A DNA stretch of 64,000 bases from Candidatus Omnitrophota bacterium (GCA_037131245.1 JBAXRK010000007.1:7226-71225); one strand, 5' to 3'; positions 9,762 through 31,574 are shown, counted from the first letter of the stretch. The notes: generated by a model not told the origin, from the sequence alone. Made by a program: numbers and translations.

Positions 9762-9776
9762 ATGTTTTGAGGGACA

Positions 9777-10514
9777 ATGGCTATTACCGGAAAACTATTA
9801 GTGATCGATCTCGACGGCCGTTGTAACTGCCGTTGTGTTTTTTGCCTTAAAGAGGACGCTATCCTGACCGCGCCGCGCCGTACCTTGGCCGGGACGCTGA
9901 CGCAGATCCGCCAGGGCATTACCGCCGGCATCGACAGTGTGGATTTTTTCGGTGGTGAACCGACCATGTATCCTTTCCTCAAGAAAGCAGTTGTCTTCAC
10001 GCAGCGGAAGGGATTAAAGGCTTTTCTGGCTACGAACGCGATCGCCTTTTCTTCAAAGGCCTACACGACAGCATTTTTTAAAGGTCTCAAGCCTTTAGCC
10101 GTACGGACCACGCTGCATAGCCATCACGCTGACGTGCATGAGCGGATCACCCGGACGCCCGGCAGTTGGGCCCGGACCATCAAGGGGATAGGCCATTTGC
10201 TGGCGGCCAATGAGCAGGTCACGGTGAACATTGTGATCAATCGCTGGAATTATCGCGAGCTGGTCGCGTGGACCCGGTTCCTGTACGGGCTCGGGGTGCG
10301 TTCCGTGAAATATTCGGCCCTGCAGCACACCGGCGGTGCTTTGGCTTGCGAGGAATTGTGGGTGGGAGATAAACAATACGCGGCCCCGTTACTGAAGGCG
10401 TTGCGCGCAGCATCGAAATTAGGCTTTTATTTTATTGAACTCGAAATGATCCCCGGGCCTGTCGTAGACAAAGCCCGGGGAATGAAGATCAATTGCCACA
10501 GCCGAAGACCCTGA
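9777..10514 (+). CDS. Small radical-SAM enzyme (core domain only)
   Basis: The motif is CNCRCVFC (CxxxCxxC), followed by FFGGEPTM. It is 245 aa with no auxiliary Cys cluster. It is the last gene of the + strand block. Confidence 0.65.
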   Translation: MAITGKLLVIDLDGRCNCRCVFCLKEDAILTAPRRTLAGTLTQIRQGITAGIDSVDFFGGEPTMYPFLKKAVVFTQRKGLKAFLATNAIAFSSKAYTTAFFKGLKPLAVRTTLHSHHADVHERITRTPGSWARTIKGIGHLLAANEQVTVNIVINRWNYRELVAWTRFLYGLGVRSVKYSALQHTGGALACEELWVGDKQYAAPLLKALRAASKLGFYFIELEMIPGPVVDKARGMKINCHSRRP

Positions 10515-12093
10515 AATAGAGGTCCTTGTAGTTACAGGCAAACTTCGCAGGCATCGGGATCTTGTCGGTCATTGGCAGGATCTTGTAGCAGTAAGCGATC
10601 TGCCCTTTGCGGTCCGTTATTTTGTGTTCGTCATCCATGCAATCATAGAACGGTTTGTCGAGTTGCCTGATCGGCGGAACATTGTCTGAGGTGGCTTGGT
10701 AACAGATGGTCCCGTCCTTGGAAAAACATATCCCGATATAGCCGCACACATCAGTGGTCGGATTGGGCGGGCAGATCGCCGGGTCTTCCTGTGAATCGCA
10801 AAGTTTATCACCTTGCACGACAGTCCAGGTAGAGGTCCAGTTCTTGTTGGTAGTATCCGGCCACCAACCGTACCAGCACGCATTCTGTGTGCAGCTTTCA
10901 TTTTCATGCAGCCCGTTAGCGCCCTCAACGTTGGGTGAATACCCTCCGGGACAGGTCCGTTCGCAATAACGATCGGGTGAGCATTGCCCGGTGGCCCCGT
11001 AATTTTTCAAATAGACGTAGTGATTACGATAGGCGTTAATTTTTTCTTGAATGCCTGTTTCGACATATTTGGTCAGGACCCGGTATGGATTGTGATTCGC
11101 TTGCATTGCTATGACCCGGTGCGCCTGAAGCAGGTCCATGTTCGCCGGAGTGGGCGGGAGGGTTGCCATATTCGGCGGATTATCACCCGCATTGGCCGCG
11201 CTCTGGCGGTAAATAACTTCTTTCACCAATTGCCAGCGCTGCGGTATGGAAAGACTATCGTCGTTCTCCAGGCTCATGGCATTTTCGTTAACGTTATGGG
11301 TATCGTCTTCCAAGGTCGTTGAATTAGAGATAATGGTACAAGGCTTTGAGTGCGGGTAAGGATATTGCCAGCAGGAAGGCAGGCAGTTCTGTTCGGTTTC
11401 ACCGCCGAAGCCGTCATGCTTACAGCCGTAAATGGTGTCGGGTGTTGACGGGTGAAGGGCATTGGCGCATTGTTTCGAGTAAATCCGTTCCCCGATCGCG
11501 CAGTCTTTGGTGTCATAAGTCCCCAGGCCGGCTTGAGTCTGGGTGCATGTTCCGATCGGATTAGCGAACTCGCCATTAAAGCGCGCGTCGACCGCGGACC
11601 GGACAGGGTTGCATAGGTTTGCGGCCGAGGGCGCGATCCCGGTGGCCGCCAGGATCTTGGTGCCGCAGCCGACCGGTTTAGCTTCGGTGCAACAGGTTTC
11701 ATCAGGGATCCAGGCTTCTTCCTGGGCGCATTTCAACGGGGTGCATGTGCGGTAATAGTAGCGCATGGTCGGCTTGTTCTTATCCGCGCCGCAATCGCCT
11801 TTGGTCCAGGTATTGATGATCGCCTTCTTCCAGTCGTTATAGTGGGTGGTTTGGTCGGGAAGCGTGACCGGATTGGCCGAACATTTGCAGCTTTTGGGTG
11901 TCAGGGACGGGTCGAGCGTGCTATCTTGTTCGATCTTTTCAGAGGTGGCATCCTTGACGCTTTCTTCGGTCAGCTTGAAATAACCCTGAACCCCTTTGAG
12001 GAGCATGGGGCCGCCGATCGCAATACCGGCCAGGATGATCGTGGCAAGCAGGATATATTCAAGAGCGGATTGGCCTTTTTTCATCAAGCGCAT
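10489..12093 (-). CDS. Flp/class-III-signal prepilin-like N-terminus fused to a ~500-aa cysteine-rich extracellular domain
   Basis: The preferred start is ATG 12093, with GAGG 5 nt upstream. The N-terminus is MRLMKKG/QSALEYILLATIILAGIAIGG, which fits the G/XXXXEY prepilin signature plus a hydrophobic helix. The rest has about 30 Cys by hand count. The 3' end overlaps the convergent rSAM gene by 26 nt. Confidence 0.6.
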   Translation of the reverse strand: MRLMKKGQSALEYILLATIILAGIAIGGPMLLKGVQGYFKLTEESVKDATSEKIEQDSTLDPSLTPKSCKCSANPVTLPDQTTHYNDWKKAIINTWTKGDCGADKNKPTMRYYYRTCTPLKCAQEEAWIPDETCCTEAKPVGCGTKILAATGIAPSAANLCNPVRSAVDARFNGEFANPIGTCTQTQAGLGTYDTKDCAIGERIYSKQCANALHPSTPDTIYGCKHDGFGGETEQNCLPSCWQYPYPHSKPCTIISNSTTLEDDTHNVNENAMSLENDDSLSIPQRWQLVKEVIYRQSAANAGDNPPNMATLPPTPANMDLLQAHRVIAMQANHNPYRVLTKYVETGIQEKINAYRNHYVYLKNYGATGQCSPDRYCERTCPGGYSPNVEGANGLHENESCTQNACWYGWWPDTTNKNWTSTWTVVQGDKLCDSQEDPAICPPNPTTDVCGYIGICFSKDGTICYQATSDNVPPIRQLDKPFYDCMDDEHKITDRKGQIAYCYKILPMTDKIPMPAKFACNYKDLYFRVFGCGN

Positions 12094-12129
12094 AAGGACC
12101 TCTAAGGGGTTTATCAAATGGTCGCTTTA

Positions 12130-12158
12130 AGTATAAAAGACAAAGACCCAATTAGCAA
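12130..12158 (-). promoter_or_regulatory. Sigma70-like promoter TTGCTA-N17-TATACT for the pilin-like gene
   Basis: Read on the minus strand: the -35 is the complement of 12153-12158 and the -10 is the complement of 12130-12135. The spacer is exactly 17 nt. Confidence 0.5.
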
Positions 12159-12191
12159 GATTTTGATTATAAATCAACGGGGTAATTCTGC

Positions 12192-12220
12192 TTGACGAAA
12201 AAAAAGTCGTAGGATATACT
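12192..12220 (+). promoter_or_regulatory. Sigma70-like promoter TTGACG-N17-TATACT upstream of glmU
   Basis: The hexamers are at 12192-12197 and 12215-12220 with a 17-nt spacer. It lies about 79 nt upstream of the glmU ATG. Confidence 0.55.
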
Positions 12221-12298
12221 ATCGCACCTTAGTGATTTTTCAGTGCTTTTTTCGGCCCGTTCACGCCTTTTATTAGTGAACGTGACGGCGCGGGGTTT

Positions 12299-13555
12299 AT
12301 GGGAAAAAATTTAAAGACTATTGTTCTGGCGGCAGGCAAGGGCACGCGCTTCAAGTCTGCTACGCCGAAGGTTTTGCATTGCCTTGCCGGTAAGCCCGCC
12401 TTGCATTATGTGCTGGATGTGGCGGAAGCGGTTGGTTCTTTGACAACGTATGTGGTGGTTGGCCATCAGGCCGAGCTGGTCGCGCAAGCGGTAGGCGGTC
12501 GGGCGGCGATCGTTGAACAGCGGCAGCAGTTGGGCACCGGTCATGCGGTCAAAATGTGCGCGCCTCATTTTAAGAGCGCTGACGGCACGGTCCTGGTGAT
12601 GTGCGGTGATACGCCGCTGCTTGATAAAGCTATTGTGCGCCGTCTGGCGCAGAAACATGAAAAGACCGGCGCGGCGGTCACGGTATTGACCTGCCTCTTG
12701 GCCGAGCCTTCGGGGTATGGCCGTATCATTCGTGACGCGCGGGGCAGGTTTGCGGCGATCCGCGAGCATAAGGACGCTTCGGCCCAAGAGCTTGCGATCC
12801 GTGAGATCAATACGGGCGTTTACTGTTTCAAGGCTAAAGAACTGTTCGGCGCGATCGGTGAGATCCGGCCGAACTCCAAGAAGAAGGAATATTATCTTAC
12901 CGATATTATTGAGTTGTTCCTGGGGCGCGGCCTGGGTGTTGAAACCCTGGTCACGGATGACTGGACCGCCAATCTTGGGCTTAATACCCGTGCCGACCTG
13001 GCTTTATCCGAGGCGATCCTTCGGAAAAAGATCCTGGGCCGGTTGATGCTTGGCGGGGTTACGGTTGTTGATCCTGCGACCACGTACGTAGAAAATGATG
13101 TTGTGATCGGGCAGGATACTGTTATTTATCCTTGCACTTATATTCATCATGACGTCCGGGTCGGACGCGGTTGTTCCCTCGGCCCTTTTGCCCGGTTACG
13201 TCCGGGTACCAGGTTGGGGAATGGCGTTTCAGTGGGGAATTTTACGGAAGTTTCCCGCTCGGTCCTGGGTGATGATGTGAACATGAAGCATTTTAGTTTT
13301 CTGGGGGACACGTCGGTCGGGCGCGGCGCGAATATCGGCTGCGGGACGGTCACCGCGAATTACGATGGAAAAACCAAGAACAAGACTTCGATCGGTCCCG
13401 GCGCGTTCATCGGCTGTGACACGGTCCTGGTCGCTCCGGTCAAGATCGGTAAAGGGTCCAAGGTCGGTGCCGGCAGCGTGGTAACGGCGGGGCGTGATGT
13501 TCCCGCTGGTAAACTGGCGGTCGGGATGCCGGCCAGGGTCATTAAAAAGGTATAG
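12299..13555 (+). CDS. glmU: Bifunctional UDP-N-acetylglucosamine pyrophosphorylase / glucosamine-1-phosphate N-acetyltransferase
   Basis: The N-terminal LAAGKGTRF nucleotidyltransferase motif is present. The C-terminus has left-handed beta-helix hexapeptide repeats. Confidence 0.85.
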   Translation: MGKNLKTIVLAAGKGTRFKSATPKVLHCLAGKPALHYVLDVAEAVGSLTTYVVVGHQAELVAQAVGGRAAIVEQRQQLGTGHAVKMCAPHFKSADGTVLVMCGDTPLLDKAIVRRLAQKHEKTGAAVTVLTCLLAEPSGYGRIIRDARGRFAAIREHKDASAQELAIREINTGVYCFKAKELFGAIGEIRPNSKKKEYYLTDIIELFLGRGLGVETLVTDDWTANLGLNTRADLALSEAILRKKILGRLMLGGVTVVDPATTYVENDVVIGQDTVIYPCTYIHHDVRVGRGCSLGPFARLRPGTRLGNGVSVGNFTEVSRSVLGDDVNMKHFSFLGDTSVGRGANIGCGTVTANYDGKTKNKTSIGPGAFIGCDTVLVAPVKIGKGSKVGAGSVVTAGRDVPAGKLAVGMPARVIKKV

Positions 13556-13559
13556 GATT

Positions 13560-14510
13560 ATGAGCGAGATCTGCGTCCTTTCGGGCAATGCGAATAAAGA
13601 GCTGGCAGAGAAAATCTGCAAGTGCCTGGATATTCCTCTGGCGGAAGTGGTTTGTACCCGTTTTAGTGAGGGAGAGATCCGTGTTCAGATCGTTGAGAAT
13701 GTGCGCGGCAAGGACCTGTTCATTATCCAGCCGACCTGCACGCCGACGAACGATAATTTGATGGAGTTATTGATCCTGATCGATGCTGCCAAGCGCGCGT
13801 CGGCCAAGCGCATTACGGCTGTTATCCCGTTCTATGGATACGCGCGCCAGGACCGCAAGGATCAGCCGCGGGTTCCGATCACAGCTAAGCTGGTGGCGAA
13901 TCTGATCACGGCAGCTGGTGTTGACCGGGTTCTGGCGATGGATCTTCATGCCAGCCAGATCCAGGGGTTCTTTGATATCCCGGTAGATCATCTGTACGCT
14001 ATTAATACGCTGTGCGAATATTTTGAAGCGATGAACATGAAGAACCTGGTGGTCGTTTCTCCCGATGTCGGCGGCATTCGCATGGCGCGCGCGTATGCCA
14101 AACGCCTGGGGGCGGGATTGGCCATCATCGACAAGCGCCGCATGAGCCCTGAAGAGACCGAAGTGATGAATATTCTTGGTAAGGTTAAGGGCAAAACCGC
14201 GGTGCTGGTGGACGATATCGTGGCGACGGGTGGATCGCTCACTGAGGCTATTACGGCGCTTAGTGAGGTTGGCGTCGAGAAAGTTTATGCCGCGGTCAGC
14301 CATGGCGTCCTTTCGGGGCCGGCGGTGGAGCGGATGGCGGAGTGCAAGGCGCTTGAAGAGCTGGTGGTGACGGATAGTATCCCGCTCAGCGCGAAGGCAA
14401 AAAAAGTTTCCAAGATCAAGCAGCTGACGGTCGCGCCGCTTTTGGCGGAAGCGATCAAGCGAATTCATAACGAACAGTCGATCAGCTGCCTGTTCGAAGT
14501 TAATCGGTAG
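13560..14510 (+). CDS. prs: Ribose-phosphate pyrophosphokinase
   Basis: The internal ATG 13560 gives MSEICVLSGNANKELAEKI. Also present are YARQDRK, DLHA.QIQGFF and the PRPP-binding loop VLVDDIVATGGS. Confidence 0.9.
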   Translation: MSEICVLSGNANKELAEKICKCLDIPLAEVVCTRFSEGEIRVQIVENVRGKDLFIIQPTCTPTNDNLMELLILIDAAKRASAKRITAVIPFYGYARQDRKDQPRVPITAKLVANLITAAGVDRVLAMDLHASQIQGFFDIPVDHLYAINTLCEYFEAMNMKNLVVVSPDVGGIRMARAYAKRLGAGLAIIDKRRMSPEETEVMNILGKVKGKTAVLVDDIVATGGSLTEAITALSEVGVEKVYAAVSHGVLSGPAVERMAECKALEELVVTDSIPLSAKAKKVSKIKQLTVAPLLAEAIKRIHNEQSISCLFEVNR

Positions 14511-21808: not shown

Positions 21809-22849
21809 ATGCGCCAAACCCTGAACGAGATCGCTCAGCTGGTTGGCGGCAGGCTTGTTGGTGACGGGGGGATGGTCATTACCGGGGTCTCCGGCATCAA
21901 GGAGGCTGTGCCTGGCGACCTGACTTTCCTGGCTAATCTGAAATACCTGCCTTTAGCTTCGTCCACTCAAGCTTCAGCGATCATTGTTGGCCGCGATGTG
22001 CTTATCAGCGGGAAAGCGGTCATTCAGGCCGATAATCCTTCGATGGCCTTCGCCAGGGTCGTTGGCATGATCAAAGAGAATTTAACGCCGCGGATCTCGG
22101 GTATCCACCCGACCGCGGTCGTTGCCTCCGATGCTGTTTTGGGGGAGGGCGTTGGTATCGGACCGCACGTGGTGATCGAAAGCGGCGTCCGTATTGGCAA
22201 GAACAGCCTTATTTGCGCGGGTGTTTTCGTCGGTCAAAAGTCCTTGCTGGGGGATAATGTCCTTATTTATCCGAATGTGACCATCCGCGAGGATGTGTCC
22301 ATTGGTAACCGGGTCATTATCCACAGCGGTACGGTCATTGGTTCCGACGGTTTTGGTTATCTTCAGGTGGGGGACCGTCACGAGAAGATCCCTCAGATGG
22401 GGACGGTGGTCGTTGAGGATGATGTTGAGATCGGCGCCTGTGTGACGGTCGATCGCGCGCGGTTCGATAAAACACTGATCGGCCGCGGCACCAAGATCGA
22501 TAATCTGGTGCAGATCGCGCATAATGTCCGCATTGGTGAGAATTGCCTGATCATTGCCTTGGCCGGGATCGCGGGGAGTGCCACCATAGGCAATAACGCG
22601 ATCATTGCCGGTCAGGTGGGTGTGGCCGGGCATGTGACCGTTGGTGAACGGGCGGTGGTCGCCGCGCAGTCGGGGATCACCAAAGATGTCGAGCCGCAAG
22701 CGAAGATGTTCGGCACACCCGCCGAAGAATATTCCAAGGCGACTCGCGTGATGGCGCATGTTAAACGCCTGCCGCGTTACGCCGATGAGCTTAAGGAGCT
22801 TAGGCAGAGAATTCAGCAATTGGAAGAAAGATCAGGGAAGGGCGCGTAA
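21809..22849 (+). CDS. lpxD: UDP-3-O-acylglucosamine N-acyltransferase
   Basis: It has hexapeptide repeats and the LpxD N-terminal domain. The operon context supports the call. Confidence 0.9.
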
Positions 22850-24165
22850 TGTTGTTGAAACAGAGGACCATTGCTCAAGAGGTTAAGGTGTCCGGGGCCG
22901 GTTTGCATACCGGCCATGTGGTCAATGTGGTCTTCAGGCCCGCCCAAGCTGATGAAGGGATCATTTTTAAGCGCTCTGACCTGCCGGGTAGCCCCGCGGT
23001 CAGGCTGGGAAGCATGTCGGTCATCATCGGCGGTGTTTCCGGGCGTTATTCCGCGGTCAAGATCGGCGAAGGCCAGATCTATACCATCGAGCATATGATG
23101 AGCGCGCTCGCCGGCCTTGGGATCGATAATATTATTATCGACATGGATGGCGATGAGGCTCCCGGCCTTGATGGCAGCGCGATCGAATATATTAAAGCGT
23201 TCAAATCCGCCGGGGTCGTCGACCTGGAGGCGGATAAAAAATATTTTGAGATCAAGGAACCGATCTGCGTTTCCAAGGACGGCGCGTCGGTCATGATCGT
23301 TCCGGCCGATGATTTCAAGGTGTCTTACGCGTTGGAATATGCTCATCCGATGCTTCGTGCCTCGGTCACGTTCGCGTTAACGCCGGAAAATTTTGAGAAA
23401 GAGATCGGCCTATGCCGCACCTTCTGCCTTAAGGATGAAGCGGATGCCTTGAAGGCCAAGGGTTTCGGCCAGGGGGCCACTTACGATAATACGCTGGTCT
23501 TCGGGCCTGAGGGTGTTGTGAAGAACGCCCTGCGTTTTCCCGACGAGCCGGCCCGGCATAAATTGATGGATTGCATCGGCGACCTGTACTTGCTGGGGGT
23601 GCCGTTAAAGGGGCATGTTTTTGCTTTTAAGAGCGGGCATAATCTGAACCGCGACCTGCTTAAGAAGATCGCCGAGCAGAAGGATAAATTCGAAGCGAAA
23701 CGCGAGCAGTTCAAGCTTGAGGTCAAGGAAGGCGCGACGGGGCTCGACGTGCGGGGGATCATGAATATCATCCCGCATCGCTATCCTTTCCTGCTGGTCG
23801 ACCGTATTACCGAGATCGAGCCGGGCAAGCGGGCGGTCGCGATCAAGAATGTCACCATGAACGAAGCGTTCTTTCAGGGGCATTTCCCGGCCCGTCCGGT
23901 CATGCCGGGGGTCCTGATGGTGGAGGCGATGGCGCAGGTGGTTGGCGTCACGATGCTCAGCAATCCGGAACTCCGCGGCAAACTGGCCTTTTTTATGTCG
24001 GTGGATAAAGTTAAATTCCGCAAGGTCATTGAACCGGGCGATCAGGTAGTGATGGAAATTGAAGTGACCAAAGCGCGTTCCCGCATCGCGCAGGCTGCCG
24101 GCGTTTGCAAGGTGGATGGCCAGGTGGTCTGCGAAGCGGAAATGGGTTTTGCTTTCGGGGAATGA
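22849..24165 (+). CDS. Bifunctional UDP-3-O-acyl-GlcNAc deacetylase / 3-hydroxyacyl-ACP dehydratase (LpxC-FabZ fusion)
   Basis: The N-terminal LpxC part has GAGLHTG and HMMSAL. The C-terminal FabZ part has PHRYPFLLVDRI and FFQGHFP..PVMPGVL. Confidence 0.85.
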   Translation: MLLKQRTIAQEVKVSGAGLHTGHVVNVVFRPAQADEGIIFKRSDLPGSPAVRLGSMSVIIGGVSGRYSAVKIGEGQIYTIEHMMSALAGLGIDNIIIDMDGDEAPGLDGSAIEYIKAFKSAGVVDLEADKKYFEIKEPICVSKDGASVMIVPADDFKVSYALEYAHPMLRASVTFALTPENFEKEIGLCRTFCLKDEADALKAKGFGQGATYDNTLVFGPEGVVKNALRFPDEPARHKLMDCIGDLYLLGVPLKGHVFAFKSGHNLNRDLLKKIAEQKDKFEAKREQFKLEVKEGATGLDVRGIMNIIPHRYPFLLVDRITEIEPGKRAVAIKNVTMNEAFFQGHFPARPVMPGVLMVEAMAQVVGVTMLSNPELRGKLAFFMSVDKVKFRKVIEPGDQVVMEIEVTKARSRIAQAAGVCKVDGQVVCEAEMGFAFGE

Positions 24166-25923: not shown

Positions 25924-26115
25924 ATGGGTAAGGTTAAGCCGGAAAATGAATGGAAGTTCAAGTGTGCTAATACCGGAAAAGCGATCAAGCGCAAGAAGCG
26001 TTATTATCGTAACGGGAAATATTACGTGACCAAGCAGGCCTGGGCGGCTCAAATGAAGAAGGAAGCCGAAGACAAGGCCAAGAAAGCCGCGGAAGCCGCA
26101 CCGGCCGCAGCGTAA
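25924..26115 (+). CDS. Small lysine-rich protein, unknown function
   Basis: It is 63 aa with its own promoter, an RBS (AAAGGGG) and a terminator hairpin. The C-terminal half is Lys/Ala-rich. Confidence 0.5.
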   Translation: MGKVKPENEWKFKCANTGKAIKRKKRYYRNGKYYVTKQAWAAQMKKEAEDKAKKAAEAAPAAA

Positions 26116-26240: not shown

Positions 26241-26534
26241 ATGAACAAGGGCTCCAGGCTGGTCGTTGTGCTGTTGCTGTTGTTGAGTGTGGCTTGTCCG
26301 GCGCAGGCGTCGTTGATGCGCGCGGATATGAGCCTTGTCCGTGGTAAAGTGATCAGTTACAATCCCAAGACCAGGGCGCTGGTGGTGGACGGTAACCGCG
26401 GGGAGGGCAAGGTGAGCTTCGACCTTTCCGCCGCGCAGGTGACGGTGGCGACCAATCCCGGTGAAGAAGTTGTTGTGATCTACAAGGTGGACGGAAAGAA
26501 GGCCACGCTGGTGAAGCCGCCACCGAAGCGATAG
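26241..26534 (+). CDS. Small secreted protein, unknown function
   Basis: The signal peptide is MNKGSRLVVVLLLLLSVACPAQA/S. It is 97 aa and is followed by a strong terminator. Confidence 0.55.
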   Translation: MNKGSRLVVVLLLLLSVACPAQASLMRADMSLVRGKVISYNPKTRALVVDGNRGEGKVSFDLSAAQVTVATNPGEEVVVIYKVDGKKATLVKPPPKR

Positions 26535-26558
26535 TAAGACATTTGTGTTAATAAAAAA

Positions 26559-26587
26559 GCCTCGTGTTTGTTCACGAGGCTTTTTTT
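26559..26587 (+). terminator. Rho-independent terminator GCCTCGTG-TTTGTT-CACGAGGC + T7
   Basis: A perfect 8-bp GC-rich stem is preceded by an A-run and followed by seven T. It could act in both directions. Confidence 0.75.
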
Positions 26588-26679: not shown

Positions 26680-26722
26680 ATTGTTTTTCTCTGAGAAAAG
26701 ATTTTGAGGAAAAACAATGCTG
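26676..26722 (-). other. 14-bp stem pairing the tRNA-Leu 3' end plus trailer (CAGCATTGTTTTTC) with a downstream complement
   Basis: Arms 26676-26689 and 26709-26722 are perfectly complementary. The right arm includes the last 5 nt of the tRNA. The left arm overlaps the previous hairpin by 4 nt. Confidence 0.6.
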
Positions 26723-26800
26723 GAGGTGGGACTCGAACCCACACACCCGTTAAGATATCGGTTTTTGAGACCGACGCGTATACCGTTCCGCCACTCCAGC
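26718..26800 (-). tRNA. tRNA-Leu (anticodon CAA), long variable arm, no encoded CCA
   Basis: The reverse complement GCTGGAGTGGCGGAACGG...TCGGTCTCAAAAACCGA...GTGGGTTCGAGTCCCACCTCCAGCA folds as a cloverleaf. The anticodon loop is CTCAAAA. Confidence 0.9.
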
Positions 26801-26825
26801 AATATCACAAAATAAGCAGGACTAC

Positions 26826-26854: not shown

Positions 26855-27068
26855 GAGTGTTCTTAGCAATAAATCAGCGTTTTAATTTTTCCACCGATTT
26901 TGCCCCAAATCGTGTTATTTAGACTAAATCCCCTTCATCTTCATGGCTTTACGATAATTAGCCATCTTTAGGCAAGAAAACGCTTTCCCTTATAACGCCT
27001 CGTTGCCCCCGTTTCCCCCTATTAATATTGTAAACTTATCTAGTAGTGTCCTTGGCAAGGGAAGGGTT

Positions 27069-30000
27069 ATGAACAATTTTGGCGTATATAAAAATTTGAT
27101 CCTGCGCAGGGTTGTGGCGTCTTTAGTGCTGTTGGCATTTTTGCTGACCAGCGTGATCGCGCCCGGCCACTATGCTTATGCCCAGGCGGCTTTTCAACTT
27201 CCCGCGGCGGGCACGCGGATCGATTTTAGCCCGTCTTTTACGCCGCCGGTCCTCAAGGGTATTAAGGTTTATCCGGAGAATCCTTTTCGTTTCGATTTTA
27301 TCCTTGATAAGGGGAACTCCCCGGACGTTGGCGACGCAATAAAAGATGAATCGCTCCGGCTGGTTAAATATTTTATGGCGTCGCTCACCGTGCCCGAGAA
27401 AGACCTTTGGGTCAACTTGTCGCCCTATGAAAAGGACCGCATTGTGCCGGAGGCTTTCGGCCAGACGGAAATGGGGCGCGATATCCTGGCGCAGGATTAC
27501 ATTCTTAAACAGATCACCGCGTCGGCCATTTACCCGGAAGGGGATACCGGCAAGAAATTCTGGGCCAGGGTGTATCAGCTTGCGTCGGAGAAGTATGGCA
27601 CCACGGATATCCCGCTCGACACCTTCAATAAGGTTTGGATCGTTCCGCAGAAAGCCGTGGTTTATGAGAACGCGGCAAGCGGTACAGCTTATATCGTTGA
27701 GAGCAAGTTAAAGGTCATGCTGGAGAGCGATTATCTGGCGCTGGAGAAGAATGCCGGCCTTGCCGCGGCGCCTCAGGTTGATCCAAGGGTAAATGAGAGC
27801 CAGGAATTGGCCAAGAATGTTATTCGCGATATTGTCCTGCCTTTGTTGGAGCGGGAAGTTAACGAGGGTGGTAACTTTATCAGGCTAAGGCAAGTGTTCC
27901 AGTCGCTTATTTTGGCGGCCTGGTATAAAAAGAAGATCAAGGACAGCCTTCTGTCGCAGGTTTACTCGGATAAGAACAAGATAAGTGGTGTGAGTATAGA
28001 CGACCCAAAGGAAGCCGAGAAAATCTGGGCGCAGTATGTGGAGGCGTTCAAGAAGGGCGTTTACAACTACATCAAGGAAGAGAAAGATCCGCTGACGGAT
28101 GAATTGATCCCGAGAAAGTATTTCTCCGGCGGAGTGATCTTAACGTTGGATCCAGATGGCGCTCAATCGGTTCTTGAGATCAAGGAAGGTGCGGCGAACA
28201 GGCCTGGGGGCTCATTAAATAATGCGTCGCAAAATGTTCTGTCAGTTTTTTTTAAACCATTCTTTAGACCCAATAGTTCCCCAAAGAGTGTTCAGGCGGA
28301 AATGCAGCCAGTAGCGGCTCCGGTTGTCGAGCCTGTTCTTTCAGATGAAGACAGGTCATTGTTGAAAGATCAAGAAATCTTTAGGCAACTATATGACGGG
28401 AAGATCGGTTCGATAGCGGACATGTGGCGTGAAGTTGAGTACAGGATCCAGGAACACCCTGCTTTTCGTGCAATGTTCATAGGGAATGAACTGACTGATC
28501 AGGCGCGCTCTTTTTTCCTGGATGTCCTGGCAGACCCGAGCTTGGAGTATCGCGATATCGCGTTTGATAAGCTAGGTAAGACCGTTATTTTTAATCGCAA
28601 GGATATCAGTTCAACCCATCGCGAGGCGGTGCTGGAGTATACACTGCGCATGGCCGGGACACTTTCAATTGATGAATTGCGGAAAGCGCTTCCGGATGTT
28701 TTGTCCGGCATGAGATTGGCCTTTTCGGCCGGAAAACAGCTTGATTCTTACCTTGCGGTTTTAATAAAGATGGGCCCGGAGGCCGCGGATGCCGCCAAGG
28801 AGTTGACTTTGATTCTTGACGGGGGGATCTCTTCGCCAGGCCCGATCTATAAGGCCCTGGCTCACATTGGCTCGACAGAAGCTGTTGATAAGATCGAGGA
28901 GGGATTGAAGGACGCCCGCCCTGAAAGAGTGAAGGGAGCGGTTGAGGCTCTTAGGGATGTTCGTTTAAATTCTCCGGGAGAAGTGTTACCAAAGACTTTG
29001 GTTGATTTGTTTAGAAAGCATGTCAGGGAGAGTTCCGAGTTGTTGTTGCTCACAACACAGGCCGTGAGAATGGTCAATCATCTTTTTACCATAGAAGAAG
29101 CTAAATTGATGGATTTGTTGGGGAGTAGAGAAAATATTGAAAAATTCTACGCCCTACCCTCGGAGTTCCAGGCTGCCGTGAGGCAACAGACTGAGGTTTC
29201 TTTGGCGCAGGGGTTGTTGCAGTTTATTGTCGAGGTACGAAAGAATCCGTACAAATCAACGACTATTGACCTGATCAGATCAATGTGGGTCCTCCCACCA
29301 GGGTTGATAGCCGGCTTGTTTATTGATCTTCTTTCAAATTCCCCAAGAGAACCACTGCGCAAGATCAAAGACGATGCCCGTGGAAAGTTGCTGGAAGAAT
29401 TTATCTCGCGTGTCATGAACAAGGATGCCGAGGGATTCAAAACATTGCTCTGGGACCGTTTAAAAGATGACCAAAAGGATATGATCAGGGAGTATATCAA
29501 GTCCTTTGCGCACATTCGTTTAAATATTCATCAACTTGAGTTAATGTTCCCGGAAACGATAGGGCAATTAAGCAGTCCCGCCGTTGATTACATTGATACG
29601 AAGGAGCTTGTGAATAAGAGTGAAGTTGAGGAACTCAAGGAGCGATTTAAAGATGCGCAGATAGAGGTCCATGAACCAAATAATAGAAATCAGGATGAAG
29701 TGGAGACAGCGATCATGGGTATTGCGAGCGACATTACCAGGCCCATGTTTAAGTCTTCAGAAGAACTTATAGAATTCAAGAAGAGCCTGCAGGCTGATTT
29801 TTTGACATCTCACAGTCATGCCCGGGTTATTTTACTAAGAGATAGTCCTTCAGGAAAAGTAATTGCTTATGCTATTTACAAAATGGACGCCGGAGATGAA
29901 GGTATATTTGCTGGTTATTTAAGCCATCTTGCTGCAGATAAACAATACATAGGTGCCGGCGGAATCCTGCTTGCGTATGCCGTTAAGAATATGCGAGATA

Positions 30001-30476
30001 TGGGTCTGTTAAGTGCGGTTTACAAGCCGGTCAATAGTGCGGTGGTGGTTGGGTTTTATGATCGATGGGTTCAAAAGAGGCAGGAATCCTCGGAAAGTAA
30101 GGTTATGGTAAAAGGCTTTAGTAATGAAAAGGGCGATGGCAATTATAGTCTTAATTTTCCTGAGTATGGTGATTATGAAAAACGCTGGGACAATGCTCCA
30201 GACATGAGGGAGTCGGAGAAAAGTTCAACCGCGCCCGTGACTGAAAAAGGCGCAAATGTGGCTACGACTGAAGATAATGCTGCAGCGGCAAACGGCGGTA
30301 TCGACTTAGCGCCGGATATGATGGACCTTCAGGTGAAGAATGGTTCTGGCGCGATCAAATTCAATTTCGATCCCGCGATGATCGAGCAAATGCAGAACGC
30401 CCCCGGATTTACTCCCGAGATCCTCGACATGCACCCGTTGAATAGCGTGCAGACCTTCTTAGGTTTGTCTGAATAG
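27069..30476 (+). CDS. Large (1135 aa) membrane-anchored/secreted protein: conserved N-terminal domain, HEAT-like repeats, GNAT-like motif, conserved-looking C-terminal tail
   Basis: ATG 27069 follows GGGAAGGG. The N-terminal hydrophobic segment is VVASLVLLAFLLTSVIAPGHYAYA. HEAT/PBS-lyase-like ALAHIGSTEAVDKIEEGLKDARPERVKGAVEALRDV is present. QYIGAG (nt 29942-29959) fits GNAT motif A (Q/R-x-x-G-x-G/A). GC drops from about 63% (5' part) to 35-42% (3' part) by hand counts. Confidence 0.6.
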   Translation: MNNFGVYKNLILRRVVASLVLLAFLLTSVIAPGHYAYAQAAFQLPAAGTRIDFSPSFTPPVLKGIKVYPENPFRFDFILDKGNSPDVGDAIKDESLRLVKYFMASLTVPEKDLWVNLSPYEKDRIVPEAFGQTEMGRDILAQDYILKQITASAIYPEGDTGKKFWARVYQLASEKYGTTDIPLDTFNKVWIVPQKAVVYENAASGTAYIVESKLKVMLESDYLALEKNAGLAAAPQVDPRVNESQELAKNVIRDIVLPLLEREVNEGGNFIRLRQVFQSLILAAWYKKKIKDSLLSQVYSDKNKISGVSIDDPKEAEKIWAQYVEAFKKGVYNYIKEEKDPLTDELIPRKYFSGGVILTLDPDGAQSVLEIKEGAANRPGGSLNNASQNVLSVFFKPFFRPNSSPKSVQAEMQPVAAPVVEPVLSDEDRSLLKDQEIFRQLYDGKIGSIADMWREVEYRIQEHPAFRAMFIGNELTDQARSFFLDVLADPSLEYRDIAFDKLGKTVIFNRKDISSTHREAVLEYTLRMAGTLSIDELRKALPDVLSGMRLAFSAGKQLDSYLAVLIKMGPEAADAAKELTLILDGGISSPGPIYKALAHIGSTEAVDKIEEGLKDARPERVKGAVEALRDVRLNSPGEVLPKTLVDLFRKHVRESSELLLLTTQAVRMVNHLFTIEEAKLMDLLGSRENIEKFYALPSEFQAAVRQQTEVSLAQGLLQFIVEVRKNPYKSTTIDLIRSMWVLPPGLIAGLFIDLLSNSPREPLRKIKDDARGKLLEEFISRVMNKDAEGFKTLLWDRLKDDQKDMIREYIKSFAHIRLNIHQLELMFPETIGQLSSPAVDYIDTKELVNKSEVEELKERFKDAQIEVHEPNNRNQDEVETAIMGIASDITRPMFKSSEELIEFKKSLQADFLTSHSHARVILLRDSPSGKVIAYAIYKMDAGDEGIFAGYLSHLAADKQYIGAGGILLAYAVKNMRDMGLLSAVYKPVNSAVVVGFYDRWVQKRQESSESKVMVKGFSNEKGDGNYSLNFPEYGDYEKRWDNAPDMRESEKSSTAPVTEKGANVATTEDNAAAANGGIDLAPDMMDLQVKNGSGAIKFNFDPAMIEQMQNAPGFTPEILDMHPLNSVQTFLGLSE

Positions 30477-30593: not shown

Positions 30594-30621
30594 TTGACTA
30601 ATATACCAAATATGGTATATT
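30594..30621 (+). promoter_or_regulatory. Promoter TTGACT-N16-TATATT overlapped by a 20-bp palindrome ATATACCA-AATA-TGGTATAT (candidate antitoxin operator)
   Basis: The hexamers are at 30594-30599 and 30616-30621. The palindrome at 30601-30620 was read directly. It lies 17 nt upstream of the toxin ATG, with AAGGGG as RBS. Confidence 0.55.
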
Positions 30622-30637
30622 TACAAGGGGATACGCA

Positions 30638-30988
30638 ATGAGGTTGCTTGTTTTTGTAGGTGCTTCTCGGGAAGATCTTAAGCAGTTTCCAGAGGAGGTG
30701 CGTCAGGATGTCGGGTTTGCGTTATATCAAGCTCAATGTGGCGGTAAGACATATGCCGCAAGATCTTTAAAAGGGTTTGGCTGTTCTGGTGTCCTAGAGA
30801 TCAGGGAAGACCACGATGGCGATACATACAGGGCCGTTTATACGGTGAAATTTGGGGAAGTAATTTATGTGTTACATTGTTTTCAAAAGAAGTCAAAGAG
30901 CGGGATTCGGACACCGCTTCAAGATATTGAGTTGATCAAGCGGCGTTTGAGAGCCGCAGAGGAAGATCATAAAGCGAACTATAAGTGA
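30638..30988 (+). CDS. Type II toxin, RelE/ParE superfamily, phage Gp49/HigB-like (DUF891)
   Basis: It is 116 aa. DLKQFPEEVRQDVGFALYQAQCGGK...LKGFG.SGVLEIRED..GDTYRAVYTVKFGEVIYVLHCFQKKSK matches the Gp49-like toxin pattern from memory. The toxin-first gene order is typical of HigBA. Confidence 0.7.
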   Translation: MRLLVFVGASREDLKQFPEEVRQDVGFALYQAQCGGKTYAARSLKGFGCSGVLEIREDHDGDTYRAVYTVKFGEVIYVLHCFQKKSKSGIRTPLQDIELIKRRLRAAEEDHKANYK

Positions 30989-30995
30989 GGCGGTC

Positions 30996-31337
30996 ATGAG
31001 GATAAAAGAGAAGATCCATAGAAGCAGTGGTAATGTTTTTGCGGATATTGGCTTGTATCATCCCGAGAGGGTCATGGCGCGAGCCCAGGTCATGTTACGG
31101 ATCACTGAGATCATCAGGGAGCGCGGTTTGACGCAGAAAGCAACTGCTGAACTGTTAGGGATCCCTCAGTCTAAGGTGTCTTGCCTGATGAATGGTAAAC
31201 TTAGCATGTTTTCTTTAGATCATCTTTTTGCGTTATTAAATATTTTGGGCCGGGAGGTTGAGATCGTTATTCGTCCGGGAAGGGCACCCGACCGAGTGGC
31301 AGCTACACATGTGTCGATGGCCGCGGCTTGTTCTTGA
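30996..31337 (+). CDS. XRE-family HTH antitoxin (HigA-like)
   Basis: SGNVFADIG and the HTH segment LTQKATAELLGIPQSKVSCLMNGK..FSLDHL are present. It starts 8 nt after the toxin stop. Confidence 0.7.
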   Translation: MRIKEKIHRSSGNVFADIGLYHPERVMARAQVMLRITEIIRERGLTQKATAELLGIPQSKVSCLMNGKLSMFSLDHLFALLNILGREVEIVIRPGRAPDRVAATHVSMAAACS

Positions 31338-31363: not shown

Positions 31364-31385
31364 CCCCCGAAGGGGGATTGTTTTC
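31364..31385 (+). terminator. Weak terminator candidate CCCCC-GAA-GGGGG followed by ATTGTTTT
   Basis: It is a 5-bp GC stem only. It lies downstream of the antitoxin gene. Confidence 0.3.
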
Positions 31386-31420: not shown

Positions 31421-31504
31421 ACCATCTATCTTCTCTTATAAAAAAGAAAAACTTTCACTCCCTTACGGGTAATGAAAGTTTTTCTTGGAGAAGATAGATG
31501 GTGG
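31419..31504 (-). terminator. Composite rod-like hairpin 3' of tRNA-Ala: 17-bp outer stem (includes the tRNA CCACCA end) enclosing a 13-bp terminator hairpin + T-run
   Basis: The outer arms 31419-31435 and 31488-31504 are perfectly complementary (CCACCATCTATCTTCTC / GAGAAGATAGATGGTGG). The inner arms are 31445-31457 and 31473-31485 (AGAAAAACTTTCA / TGAAAGTTTTTCT). TTTTT follows on the minus strand. Confidence 0.65.
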
Positions 31505-31574
31505 AGCTGAGGGGGATCGAACCCCTGACCTCCTGAATGCCATTCAGGCGCTCTCCCAGCTGAGCTACAGCCCC
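31499..31574 (-). tRNA. tRNA-Ala (anticodon GGC), CCA encoded
   Basis: The reverse complement is GGGGCTGTAGCTCAGCTGGGAGAGCGCCTGAATGGCATTCAGGAGGTCAGGGGTTCGATCCCCCTCAGCTCCACCA. The anticodon loop is ATGGCAT. Confidence 0.92.

What the first reader, a model, noticed from the sequence alone, without database searches (positions are those of the whole stretch)
27069..30476. 1135-aa compositionally mosaic protein: conserved N-domain, HEAT-like repeats, GNAT-like motif, distinctive C-terminal tail
The 5' third of the gene is host-like in GC. It encodes a signal-anchor and a region (LPAAGTRIDFSPSFTPPVLKGIKVYPENPFRFDFILD...WVNLSPYEKDRIVPEAFGQTEMGRDILAQDYILKQITAS) that I recall seeing in large uncharacterised proteins of candidate phyla. 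That is memory only, and no function is known.

From about nt 28200 the GC falls. The product shows HEAT/PBS-lyase-like repeats (around nt 28850-28970). It also has a segment with GNAT motif A (QYIGAG, nt 29942-29959, preceded by RVILLRDSPSGKVIAYAIY). The tail begins NGGIDLAPDMMDLQVKNGSG...FLGLSE.

A conserved N-terminal part, a compositionally foreign C-terminal enzymatic module and a downstream TA pair together recall polymorphic-toxin / C-terminal module-swapping loci. GNAT toxins that acetylate aminoacyl-tRNA are established (TacT/AtaT), but any such role here is speculation.
Basis: partly seen in the sequence, partly recalled or inferred. Interest (0 to 1): 0.55.

Follow-up and report, generated by a model that had tools for sequence, protein, structure and literature searches.

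The report
Omnitrophota exported head–cargo–tail protein family

Summary
The 1135-aa ORF (27069-30476, +) is real, and the identical protein occurs in three independent assemblies. It belongs to a very large Omnitrophota-restricted family: 8,762 representatives of 50%-identity clusters. No match in Pfam, NCBIfam, PHROGs or PADLOC, and no paper found.

The architecture is strict:
- a cleavable Sec signal peptide;
- a ~317-aa near-invariant head (aa 41-357, ending KYFSGG), with no PDB or viral structural match;
- a hypervariable middle;
- a ~58-aa conserved tail (GGIDL...DPAM...FLGL).

The GC mosaic is real and family-wide. Head and tail have host-like GC3 (0.65, 0.68). The middle has 0.48, and the GNAT-like part 0.38. 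The middle is lower than the head in 51 of 52 family genes.

Cargo turns over far faster than heads diverge: at 80-90% head identity, only 3% of pairs share cargo.

This gene's 718-aa cargo is an orphan. Its HEAT-like and GNAT-like calls are only sub-threshold.

The downstream Gp49/HTH_37 toxin-antitoxin pair is an unrelated neighbour, absent from all 80 other family loci.

Module swapping is supported; a polymorphic-toxin or TacT-like role is not. Function is inferred: a constant export or anchoring carrier for exchangeable payloads.

The parts
27069..30476 (+). Whole gene, 1135 aa plus stop: one member of the Omnitrophota head-cargo-tail family
   Evidence: ORF list. 100% match to NCBI MAG protein WCO69_04085. 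Identical protein in 3 assemblies.
27057..27066 (+). Purine-rich Shine-Dalgarno-like run (AAGGGAAGGG) just upstream of the ATG at 27069
   Evidence: Sequence read directly. It supports the ATG rather than the upstream in-frame TTG at 27003.
27069..27182 (+). Sec-type signal peptide, aa 1-38. Basic n-region (K8, R13, R14), very hydrophobic core, AYA|Q cleavage-type site
   Evidence: Family-wide, 154 of 156 complete N-termini have an AxA-like site 2-5 aa before LPxPG, with mean n-region charge +2.3. Only 2% are Tat-like; this protein's hydrophobic core scores KD 3.1.
27189..28139 (+). Conserved 'head' domain, aa 41-357, ending in the invariant KYFSGG (nt 28116-28133)
   Evidence: All 119 homologues align here at 44-72% identity. 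101 near-invariant positions. AlphaFold blocks mostly pLDDT 85-96. No Pfam or NCBIfam hit. No Foldseek match in PDB or BFVD. GC3 0.647, host-like.
28140..28343 (+). Post-head linker, aa 358-425, poorly conserved and low confidence. Contains DGAQ (aa 363-366), a degenerate form of the family's DxAM linker motif
   Evidence: Conservation collapses here. pLDDT below 50. Motif analysis.
28344..29564 (+). All-helical part of the orphan cargo, aa 426-832; likely an alpha-solenoid. Sub-threshold HEAT_2 match at aa 594-629 (nt 28848-28955)
   Evidence: Secondary structure of the model, at low confidence. HEAT_2 E=0.008 and 8e-4, below cut-off. No homologue but itself.
29706..30188 (+). GNAT-like alpha/beta part of the cargo, aa 880-1040. 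Q-x-x-G-x-G motif QYIGAG at nt 29943-29960. Lowest GC3 in the gene
   Evidence: PF00583 E=0.02, 15.6 bits (cut-off 20.7), profile positions 23-103 of 116, aa 905-987. Predicted strand-strand-strand-helix order around the motif, but pLDDT ~30. GC3 0.379. No PDB sequence hit. Permissive homology search empty.
30189..30293 (+). Pre-tail linker, aa 1041-1075, low complexity
   Evidence: pLDDT ~30-40. Not conserved.
30294..30473 (+). Conserved 'tail' module, aa 1076-1135: GGIDL...IKF.FDPAM...NAPGF.P.I...FLGL
   Evidence: 118 of 119 homologues carry it 0-22 aa from their C-terminus, mostly 0-13. G1076, G1077, I1078, D1079 and G1113 are invariant. pLDDT 71-90 for aa 1076-1110. GC3 0.683, host-like.
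30638..30988 (+). Neighbour, not part of the family unit: Gp49/HigB-like (RelE/ParE-type) toxin
   Evidence: PF05973 1.8e-24. phrog_2523 4e-19. Own promoter-like site at 30594-30621. Absent from 80 other family loci.
30996..31337 (+). Neighbour, not part of the family unit: HTH_37 (Xre/HigA-like) antitoxin
   Evidence: PF13744 3.3e-23. Terminator-like hairpin at 31364-31376.
26717..26801 (-). tRNA-Leu(caa), left boundary of the low-GC segment that holds the gene and the TA pair
   Evidence: ARAGORN and Rfam.
31499..31574 (-). tRNA-Ala(ggc), right boundary of that segment
   Evidence: ARAGORN and Rfam.

Best explanation
The gene encodes one member of a very large, Omnitrophota-specific family of exported modular proteins.

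Shown:
- Every member has an N-terminal Sec-type signal peptide with an AxA site.
- Next comes a ~317-aa, almost invariant head ending in KYFSGG, then a linker, then a hypervariable middle ('cargo', about 200 to ~4000 aa).
- Every member ends in a ~58-aa conserved tail (GGIDL...DPAM...FLGL).
- Genomes carry many copies, dispersed or in tandem, with no conserved partner gene.
- Heads and tails have the synonymous-site composition of their own genome. Cargo is systematically AT-richer.
- Cargo is replaced far faster than heads diverge, with breakpoints at the two module boundaries.
- In this gene the cargo is a 718-aa orphan: a linker, an all-helical HEAT-like region, and a divergent, probably GNAT-like alpha/beta region.

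Inferred:
- Head and tail are constant 'handles'. After Sec (probably SRP-dependent, co-translational) export they target, anchor or assemble the protein in the cell envelope, or pass it onward. They also serve as homology anchors for cassette exchange.
- The cargo is the exchangeable payload, an enzyme or a binding module.
- About a third of cargoes are cofactor-dependent 'cytoplasmic-type' enzymes: methyltransferases, HATPase, PPDK_N, GNAT, NUDIX, kinases, radical SAM. This repertoire also marks the phylum's giant exported proteins, and the phylum is thought to be predatory or parasitic. The most likely role is therefore surface display or delivery of effectors acting on or in a partner cell.
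- The adjacent toxin-antitoxin pair is an independent addiction module that shares the tRNA-flanked segment.
For: - Family and architecture. There are 8,762 cluster representatives, 6,257 of them at E<=1e-30. Nearly all show two matched stretches, and 118 of 119 homologues have both head and tail.
- Taxonomy and copy number. All of the top 80 loci are Omnitrophota MAGs (some under placeholder titles). One MAG has at least 8 copies, and tandem arrays occur.
- Signal peptide.
- No conserved neighbour.
- Mosaic composition: for this gene; for the family, where head GC3 exceeds middle GC3 in 51 of 52 genes (p=4e-10) and head versus background is not significant.
- Cargo turnover: (188 middles form 100 clusters, 71 of them singletons; heads are 69% identical). 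(the nearest-head partner shares cargo in 7 of 87 genes; 3% share cargo at 80-90% head identity; heads are 69% identical within an assembly and 62% between). (nucleotide similarity stops at KYFSGG).
- Orphan cargo kept in frame. P(no stop by chance) is 8e-20, against 42 and 66 stops in the other frames.
- Cargo repertoire: precomputed Pfam. It matches the domain lists for Omnitrophota giant proteins.
- Lifestyle context: PMC10066038.
- Head and tail fold confidently, but without known relatives.
Against: - Nothing here shows where the mature protein ends up: periplasm, outer membrane, surface, medium or another cell.
- No secretion machinery is linked by gene neighbourhood.
- Two thirds of cargoes have no recognisable domain, and this one is an orphan, so 'payload' could be too generous for many members.
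- Export of cofactor-dependent enzymes, including radical SAM, through Sec is unusual and unexplained.
- Cargo AT-richness could reflect fast evolution under AT-biased mutation rather than foreign origin.
- I could not inspect model coordinates, so head-tail contact is untested.
- The signal-peptide call rests on my own rule-based analysis, not a trained predictor.
- Relatives of this genome are too distant (anchor protein 53-63% identical) to catch a cassette swap at this very locus.
Confidence: 0.55

Rival explanations
1. Envelope-resident housekeeping scaffold. The proteins are exported and stay in the periplasm or on the membranes of the producer. Head and tail tether them or make them oligomerise, and the middles provide varied periplasmic enzymatic or binding functions for the cell itself. 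Nothing is delivered to another cell.
For: Classical signal peptide. No linked secretion system and no immunity-like gene. This gene sits beside the outer-membrane biogenesis cluster bamA-skp-lpxD-lpxC/fabZ-lpxA-lpxI, and lpx genes lie near family genes in a few other loci. Many members have a disordered, TolA-like low-complexity linker after the head, as in periplasm-spanning proteins.
Against: Many cargo domains need ATP, SAM, acetyl-CoA or nucleotide substrates that are not expected in the periplasm. Extreme cargo turnover and AT-rich accessory-like composition are atypical for housekeeping functions.
Confidence: 0.22
2. Variable surface protein. Head and tail are the functional, structural parts of an envelope component. 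The middle is mainly a fast-evolving exposed spacer whose diversity helps evade phages, predators or host recognition, analogous to Msp2/P44-type antigens with conserved ends and a hypervariable centre.
For: Conserved ends with a hypervariable centre, many paralogues, and exchange at the conserved flanks. 66% of cargoes, including this one, have no recognisable domain. The frame must stay open simply to keep the tail in frame.
Against: About one third of cargoes are intact, diverse enzyme domains, which is not expected of a mere spacer. Middles are very long (median ~790 aa, up to ~4000). No arrays of silent donor cassettes were found.
Confidence: 0.12
3. One reading: a polymorphic-toxin-like locus in which a C-terminal GNAT toxin module, possibly acetylating aminoacyl-tRNA like TacT/AtaT, is swapped onto a conserved N-terminal delivery domain, with the downstream TA pair as part of the system.
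For: A conserved N-terminal part with an exchangeable foreign-looking module. A sub-threshold GNAT match carrying a Q-x-x-G-x-G motif. GNAT is a recurrent cargo type in the family (P0061, P0111) and in the phylum's long proteins.
Against: The variable module is internal and the C-terminus is the conserved tail. No immunity-like gene recurs downstream. The TA pair is Gp49/HTH_37, unrelated to GNAT-toxin antitoxins, has its own promoter-like site, and is absent from 80 other family loci. The GNAT call is not significant. No PADLOC hit.
Confidence: 0.06
4. Cytoplasmic membrane-tethered enzymes. The N-terminal hydrophobic segment is an uncleaved anchor that leaves head, cargo and tail in the cytoplasm, where cofactor-dependent cargo can work.
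For: The cargo repertoire is typical of cytoplasmic enzymes. The 2026 preprint reads many long Omnitrophota proteins as membrane-anchored cytoplasmic.
Against: The positive charge lies N-terminal of the hydrophobic core (+2.3). The following residues are neutral to acidic. A conserved AxA site precedes the mature N-terminus in 154 of 156 proteins. All of this predicts N-in, C-out orientation with cleavage.
Confidence: 0.05

Closest known systems
Polymorphic toxin systems (CdiA, Rhs, MafB and similar)
   Same: A constant trafficking part fused to highly diverse, recombining modules. Multiple paralogues per genome. Variable modules AT-richer than the constant part. Sharp breakpoints at short conserved motifs.
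   Different: Here the variable part is internal, between two conserved domains. There is no downstream immunity gene, no orphan cassette arrays and no linked TpsB, T6SS or T7SS genes. Cargo is mostly metabolic or regulatory-type enzymes or orphans rather than nucleases or deaminases. Head and tail have no sequence or fold relation to known pre-toxin or trafficking domains.
T9SS cargo proteins (signal peptide + variable body + conserved C-terminal domain) and inverse autotransporters (signal peptide + conserved N-terminal translocator + variable passenger)
   Same: A Sec signal peptide plus a conserved terminal module that could serve as the second-step export or anchoring signal for very diverse passengers.
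   Different: Neither the tail (58 aa, two short strands plus helices) nor the head (mixed alpha/beta, not a beta-barrel) matches the T9SS CTD, autotransporter, intimin or TPS families in Pfam or NCBIfam or by fold. Both ends are conserved at once.
Omnitrophota giant 'Archaeovorin'-type and long multi-domain proteins (bioRxiv 10.1101/2023.11.21.568195; 10.64898/2026.06.07.730766)
   Same: Same phylum. Signal peptide or TM at the N-terminus. The same domain repertoire: HEAT_2, HATPase_c, methyltransferases, GNAT, PPDK_N, NUDIX, radical SAM, TPR. Many regions without recognisable domains.
   Different: Family members are 0.6-4.4 kaa with one cargo unit and defined head and tail modules. Those papers do not describe a head or tail, and I could not test whether giant proteins contain them.
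Msp2/P44-type and pilin-type variable surface proteins
   Same: Conserved N- and C-terminal regions flanking a hypervariable centre, with recombination at the conserved flanks.
   Different: The centre here is hundreds to thousands of residues and often a complete enzyme domain. No silent donor cassettes were seen.
TacT/AtaT/ItaT GNAT toxin-antitoxin systems
   Same: Possibly a GNAT fold with a Q-x-x-G-x-G acetyl-CoA motif.
   Different: Those are ~170-aa stand-alone cytoplasmic toxins with a dedicated RHH/DUF1778 antitoxin. Here the GNAT-like stretch is sub-threshold, embedded in an exported 1135-aa protein, and the adjacent TA pair is of the HigB/HigA (Gp49/HTH) type.

Membership tests
Omnitrophota head-cargo-tail family (defined here; not in curated libraries) | N-terminal Sec-type signal peptide with an AxA site shortly before LPxPG | tested here: met
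   Window protein...AYA|QAAFQLPAAG. Family: 154 of 156.
Omnitrophota head-cargo-tail family (defined here; not in curated libraries) | Conserved ~317-aa head ending in KYFSGG | tested here: met
   44-72% identity to 119 homologues over aa ~10-360. The invariant positions are all present in the window protein.
Omnitrophota head-cargo-tail family (defined here; not in curated libraries) | Conserved ~58-aa C-terminal tail GGIDL...DPAM...NAPGF...FLGL at the extreme C-terminus | tested here: met
   aa 1076-1135 align to the tails of 118 of 119 homologues.
Omnitrophota head-cargo-tail family (defined here; not in curated libraries) | Non-conserved middle with lower GC3 than head and tail | tested here: met
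   0.478 against 0.647 and 0.683. Family: 51 of 52.
Polymorphic toxin systems | Variable toxin domain at the extreme C-terminus | tested here: not met
   The extreme C-terminus is the conserved tail; the variable part is internal.
Polymorphic toxin systems | Cognate immunity gene immediately downstream, recurrent across loci | tested here: not met
   387 neighbours of 94 family genes form 323 clusters with no recurrent downstream family. Here the downstream genes are a self-contained Gp49/HTH_37 pair.
Polymorphic toxin systems | Known trafficking or pre-toxin domain and a linked secretion system (TPS/TpsB, PAAR/T6SS, LXG/T7SS and similar) | tested here: not met
   No Pfam or NCBIfam hit in the head. 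No such neighbours.
TacT/AtaT-type GNAT toxin-antitoxin | Small stand-alone GNAT toxin with an adjacent dedicated (RHH/DUF1778) antitoxin | tested here: not met
   The GNAT-like stretch is internal to an exported 1135-aa protein. The adjacent pair is PF05973 plus PF13744.
TacT/AtaT-type GNAT toxin-antitoxin | Acetylation of aminoacyl-tRNA; toxicity | not testable with these tools
   Needs expression and biochemical assays.
GNAT acetyltransferase superfamily (fold level) | Significant profile match to a GNAT family | tested here: inconclusive
   No hit in the full-length scan. The segment alone gives PF00583 at E=0.02, 15.6 bits, below the 20.7 cut-off, but colinear over 80 of 116 profile positions. 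No PDB sequence hit. The permissive homology search was empty.
GNAT acetyltransferase superfamily (fold level) | Motif A Q/R-x-x-G-x-G/A at the strand-to-helix junction | tested here: met
   QYIGAG at aa 959-964, followed by a predicted helix at 964-977 and preceded by three predicted strands. The model confidence there is low.
GNAT acetyltransferase superfamily (fold level) | GNAT fold by structure comparison | tested here: inconclusive
   The model has pLDDT ~30 in aa 859-1071, so the absence of a Foldseek hit is uninformative.
HEAT / PBS-lyase repeats | Significant repeat-profile match and an alpha-solenoid fold | tested here: inconclusive
   HEAT_2 at E=0.008 and 8e-4, 16.9-20 bits against a 27.7 cut-off, one repeat only. 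aa 426-832 are predicted all-helical at low confidence.
C-terminal sorting or secretion signals (T9SS CTD, PEP-CTERM/exosortase, LPXTG, GlyGly-CTERM, RTX/T1SS) | Match to the corresponding curated models; a terminal TM helix plus basic cluster (sortase/exosortase types) or RTX repeats (T1SS) | tested here: not met
   No NCBIfam or Pfam hit on the tail. The tail ends ...FLGLSE, without a TM helix or basic cluster. There are no GGxGxD repeats.
HigB/HigA-like type II TA (the neighbouring pair only) | Gp49/RelE-fold toxin followed by an Xre-type HTH antitoxin in one operon | tested here: met
   PF05973 1.8e-24 and PF13744 3.3e-23, with an 8-nt gap between the genes, a promoter-like site upstream and a terminator-like hairpin downstream.

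The most novel reading that the evidence does not exclude
Head and tail together form a previously unknown carrier or delivery module, specific to Omnitrophota, into which payload domains are inserted as a loop. After Sec export this carrier assembles on, or passes through, the outer membrane. It then presents or injects payloads into prey or host cells. The family-specific DxAM motifs that bracket the cargo would be processing or recognition sites that release it. The same unit may be the building block of the phylum's giant multi-enzyme proteins. That would amount to a new secretion/effector system and the main effector repertoire of a whole phylum.
Probability: 0.2. Interest if true: 0.85.

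Novelty: new variant of a known kind. Interest (0 to 1): 0.64.

Why it matters
Omnitrophota are a widespread, almost uncultivated phylum thought to live as predators or parasites, and how they act on partner cells is unknown.

A family with thousands of sequence clusters, many copies per genome, a strict exported head-cargo-tail design and very fast payload turnover is a strong candidate for the phylum's interaction toolkit.

It is also directly testable:
- The two constant modules give handles for antibodies, pull-downs, reporter fusions and HMM-based cataloguing of all payloads.
- The head is a confident fold with no known relative.
- The family offers a natural example of domain insertion between two conserved anchors, with a clear composition signature. 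That makes it useful for studying how modular proteins exchange parts.

For this particular gene the practical message is negative. It should not be annotated as a toxin or as part of the neighbouring TA system.

Tried and rejected
1. Pfam, NCBIfam, PHROGs and PADLOC scans of the whole protein gave no hit for head or tail.
2. A homology search with the 680-aa middle found only the protein itself. A search with the GNAT-like core at E<=10 scored nothing, not even the protein itself, so that tool was uninformative there (one search was a parameter error).
3. BLASTP of the GNAT-like segment against the two family members with bona fide GNAT domains showed no similarity.
4. phmmer of that segment against PDB gave only chance hits. 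A family profile against PDB hit only low-complexity linkers such as Huntingtin, TolA and Med15.
5. Foldseek of the head model and the full-length model against PDB, and of the head against BFVD, gave nothing at E<0.03. Recurrent HU/IHF-like and MakE or colicin hits are noise, with TM about 0.1.
6. I wanted to test head-tail docking from the full-length model, but coordinates and PAE are not exposed. I did not attempt a coevolution test: about 240 related sequences would confound phylogeny with contact.
7. I looked for a cassette swap at the orthologous locus, using the birA-like anchor in metagenomes. Relatives are too distant (53-63% identity) and lack the family gene, the TA pair and the lpx genes upstream.
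8. Orphan cargo-tail cassettes, as in CDI/Rhs loci: the 7 'orphan tails' are frameshift-split or contig-edge genes.
9. Tat export is rejected: only 2% have a Tat-like motif and the cores are very hydrophobic.
10. A phage-borne family is rejected: 2 hits in 2.9 million viral contigs.
11. Literature searches for the motifs (GGIDL, KYFSGG) and for Omnitrophota protein families found no description.

Full report
**1. The observation**

The window contains an ORF from the ATG at 27069 to the stop at 30476, encoding 1135 aa. An upstream in-frame TTG at 27003 is possible. A purine-rich SD-like run lies at 27057-27066, just before the ATG. The same 1135-aa product is annotated as hypothetical protein WCO69_04085 of a Candidatus Omnitrophota MAG. 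The identical protein is encoded in three independent assemblies: the NCBI MAG, ENA ERZ4200879 and Logan SRR12676967. So neither the gene nor its composition is an assembly artefact.

The effect is clearest at third codon positions:
- head (aa 41-357): GC3 0.647;
- tail (aa 1076-1135): GC3 0.683;
- the 58 genes of the window: 0.642 +/- 0.057;
- middle (aa 358-1075): 0.478;
- GNAT-like part (aa 851-1040): 0.379, about 4.6 SD below the mean.

The middle is nevertheless a maintained reading frame. The chance of no stop codon is about 8e-20, while the other two frames have 42 and 66 stops.

**2. What the protein belongs to**

A search of 5.8 billion proteins gave more than 4,500 hits. These share only the first ~30% of the query, at 44-72% identity, and they carry very different Pfam domains further on.

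Mapping all local alignments showed a strict pattern:
- all 119 homologues cover aa ~50-350;
- none covers aa 626-925;
- 118 of 119 cover aa 1076-1125.

In each homologue that last match lies 0-22 residues (mostly 0-13) from its own C-terminus. The tail consensus is GGIDLTPANMNLQTQNxGxxIKFHxDPAMLQQLQNAPGFVPVIINIQPMxDLxxFLGL.

The head has 101 near-invariant positions in 120 sequences and ends at an invariant KYFSGG. Conservation collapses at aa ~358, nt ~28140.

An exhaustive HMMER scan of 1.84 billion cluster representatives found 8,762 proteins at E<=0.001 and 6,257 at E<=1e-30. Almost all have two matched stretches.

The best 80 are all Omnitrophota MAGs, some under placeholder titles.

Neither head nor tail matches Pfam-A, NCBIfam, PHROGs or PADLOC. 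I found no paper describing the family or its motifs.

**3. Anatomy**

*Signal peptide.* Of 156 complete N-termini, 154 have an AxA-type site 2-5 residues before the conserved LPxPG. Position -1 is A/G/S and position -3 is A/V/S. The n-region has a mean net charge of +2.3 and the mature start is slightly acidic. Only 2% have a Tat-like motif. The hydrophobic cores are very strong, which by established knowledge favours Sec, often through SRP.

*Head.* AlphaFold2 gives a confident mixed alpha/beta domain: two long beta-hairpins and several long helices. With 82 sequences, most blocks reach pLDDT 85-96. Foldseek finds nothing in PDB or BFVD; the best E-values are 0.13, 0.14 and 0.034, with TM about 0.1.

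*Tail.* It is confidently folded in the full-length model (aa 1076-1110, pLDDT 71-90). I could not inspect coordinates, so I cannot say whether it packs on the head.

*Middle of this protein.* No homologue other than itself was found. It comprises:
- a low-confidence linker;
- an all-helical region (aa 426-832) with a single sub-threshold HEAT_2 match;
- an alpha/beta region with a sub-threshold Acetyltransf_1 match. E is 0.02 and the score 15.6 bits against a cut-off of 20.7, but the match is colinear over profile positions 23-103 of 116.

That last region contains QYIGAG (Q-x-x-G-x-G) at nt 29943-29960. Predicted strands precede it and a predicted helix follows. The model there has pLDDT ~30, so the missing fold match says nothing. 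GNAT is a common cargo in the family (P0061, P0111) and in the phylum's long proteins. I rate a real but divergent GNAT fold at roughly 60%, unproven.

**4. Family behaviour**

- *Middle length.* Middles range from about 200 to ~4000 aa; the median in the fetched loci is ~790.
- *Cargo diversity.* Among 188 members, heads are on average 69% identical. The middles fall into 100 unrelated clusters, 71 of them singletons.
- *Recognisable domains.* About a third of the 119 closest members have recognisable domains in the middle. These include methyltransferases, HATPase_c, PPDK_N, GNAT, NUDIX, several kinases, phosphatases, phosphoribosyltransferase, glycosyltransferases, radical SAM/B12, HEAT and TPR. 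The same repertoire is reported for the phylum's giant proteins.
- *Copy number.* Genomes carry many copies, at least 8 in one MAG counting only the 80 fetched loci. Copies often lie in same-strand tandem arrays.
- *Neighbours.* They are not conserved: 387 neighbours form 323 clusters.
- *Composition.* The mosaic is a family rule. Mean GC3 is 0.525 for heads, 0.404 for middles, 0.527 for tails and 0.529 for other genes of the same loci. The head exceeds the middle in 51 of 52 genes (p = 4e-10), and head versus background is not significant.
- *Head versus cargo.* Head similarity does not predict cargo. The nearest-head partner shares cargo in 7 of 87 genes, and at 80-90% head identity only ~3% of pairs do. 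Heads are more alike within an assembly (69%) than between assemblies (62%).
- *Breakpoints.* Between same-genome paralogues, nucleotide similarity of 76-81% stops at KYFSGG and sometimes resumes at the tail.
- *Discordance.* P0044's head is closest to P0089 (80%), but its cargo is closest to P0116 (60% versus 39%).

Together these results show replacement of the middle between two conserved anchors. Whether the AT-richness reflects foreign origin or fast evolution under AT-biased mutation is open.

**5. Junction features (family level)**

The short motif D-x-A-M occurs at the following densities:
- 1.72 per 100 aa in the 60 residues after the head;
- 0.70 per 100 aa in the 60 residues before the tail;
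- 0.082 inside the cargo;
- 0.013 in non-family genes, which matches the composition expectation of 0.012.

The tail core itself contains DPAM, 25 residues after GGIDL.

Post-head segments score higher against a tail HMM than cargo-interior controls do (p = 7e-29), but single scores are weak, at most 7.3 bits. In part of the family, then, the cargo is flanked by a degenerate repeat of the tail's first half. That fits insertion into a hairpin-like element, a recombination scar, or recognition or processing sites. The window protein has only a degenerate DGAQ at aa 363, besides the tail's DPAM.

**6. Surroundings**

The gene and the downstream pair lie between tRNA-Leu (26717-26801, -) and tRNA-Ala (31499-31574, -). 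This segment sits at the junction of an outer-membrane biogenesis cluster (bamA-skp-lpxD-lpxC/fabZ-lpxA-lpxI) and the biotin genes.

Relatives keep birA-bioF-hydrolase, but none has the family gene, the TA pair or the lpx genes upstream.

The pair at 30638-31337 is a Gp49/HigB-like toxin plus an HTH_37 antitoxin, with its own promoter-like site and a terminator-like hairpin. No homologue of either gene occurs in the 80 other family loci. It is an independent neighbour.

**7. Mechanism**

*Shown:* membership in the family, the architecture, the export-type signal, the cargo turnover and the composition rule.

*Inferred:* head and tail are constant handles for envelope targeting, anchoring or assembly, or for onward secretion. 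They also act as homology anchors for cassette exchange. The cargo is an exchangeable payload.

Three points make display or delivery of effectors to a partner cell the most likely role:
- many payloads need cytoplasmic cofactors;
- the phylum is thought to be predatory or parasitic (PMC10066038);
- the domain repertoire overlaps with that of the giant exported proteins.

The main rivals are an envelope-resident scaffold and a variable surface spacer.

**8. Novelty**

The concept of a constant trafficking part with swappable payloads is known. The internal-cassette geometry, the two modules without known relatives, the scale and the restriction to one phylum are not described in anything I could search. 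I file it as a new variant of a known kind. There is a minority chance that it is a new secretion or delivery system.

Noticed in passing
window 30638-31337 (+): A complete type II toxin-antitoxin operon: Gp49/HigB-like toxin (PF05973) and HTH_37 antitoxin. It has a promoter-like site at 30594-30621 and a terminator-like hairpin at 31364-31376. GC3 is low (0.43 and 0.51). It is not associated with the family elsewhere.
   Followed up: yes
window 26717-26801 (-) and 31499-31574 (-): tRNA-Leu(caa) and tRNA-Ala(ggc) bracket the ~4.7-kb lower-GC segment holding the family gene and the TA pair. This is an island-like setting. Relatives with conserved birA-bioF-hydrolase lack this segment.
   Followed up: partly
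family members (P0002-P0191; loci L001-L080): linkers after KYFSGG and before GGIDL. Window aa 363-366 (nt 28155-28166) carries a degenerate DGAQ: A family-specific short linear motif, D-x-A-M, brackets the cargo. It is 21-fold and 8.5-fold enriched over the cargo interior and about 130-fold over non-family genes. The segment after the head is weakly tail-like. Possible readings are a processing or recognition site, or a duplication scar.
   Followed up: partly
window 22849-24165 (+): A single 438-aa ORF combines LpxC and FabZ/FabA-type dehydratase domains (a bifunctional LpxC/FabZ fusion). It lies within a bamA-skp-lpxD-lpxC/fabZ-lpxA-lpxI cluster, which confirms a diderm, lipid-A-making organism.
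   Followed up: no
window 25924-26115 (+) and 26241-26534 (+): Two small ORFs without any family match lie just upstream. One is a 63-aa lysine-rich protein. The other is a 97-aa protein with a signal-peptide-like N-terminus, followed by a strong terminator-like hairpin at 26553-26586.
   Followed up: no
P0044 / P0089 / P0116: Head and cargo give discordant relationships. The P0044 head is 80% identical to P0089 but 64% to P0116, while its cargo is 60% identical to P0116 and 39% to P0089. This points to cassette exchange or head gene conversion.
   Followed up: partly
L163, L164 (IMG/VR contigs): Only two of 2.9 million viral contigs encode a head relative (56% identity). These are probably host flanks or misclassified contigs. 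I did not inspect them.
   Followed up: no
L076 1354-18701; L013 9803-18778; L001 4971-20939: Same-strand tandem arrays of two to four family genes with different cargo. One gene in L076 is split by a frameshift (9141-11771 and 11793-14495).
   Followed up: partly
(tool behaviour): The word-indexed homology search with the 161-aa GNAT-like core did not return even the protein it came from. Negative results from that tool with short queries should not be over-read.
   Followed up: no
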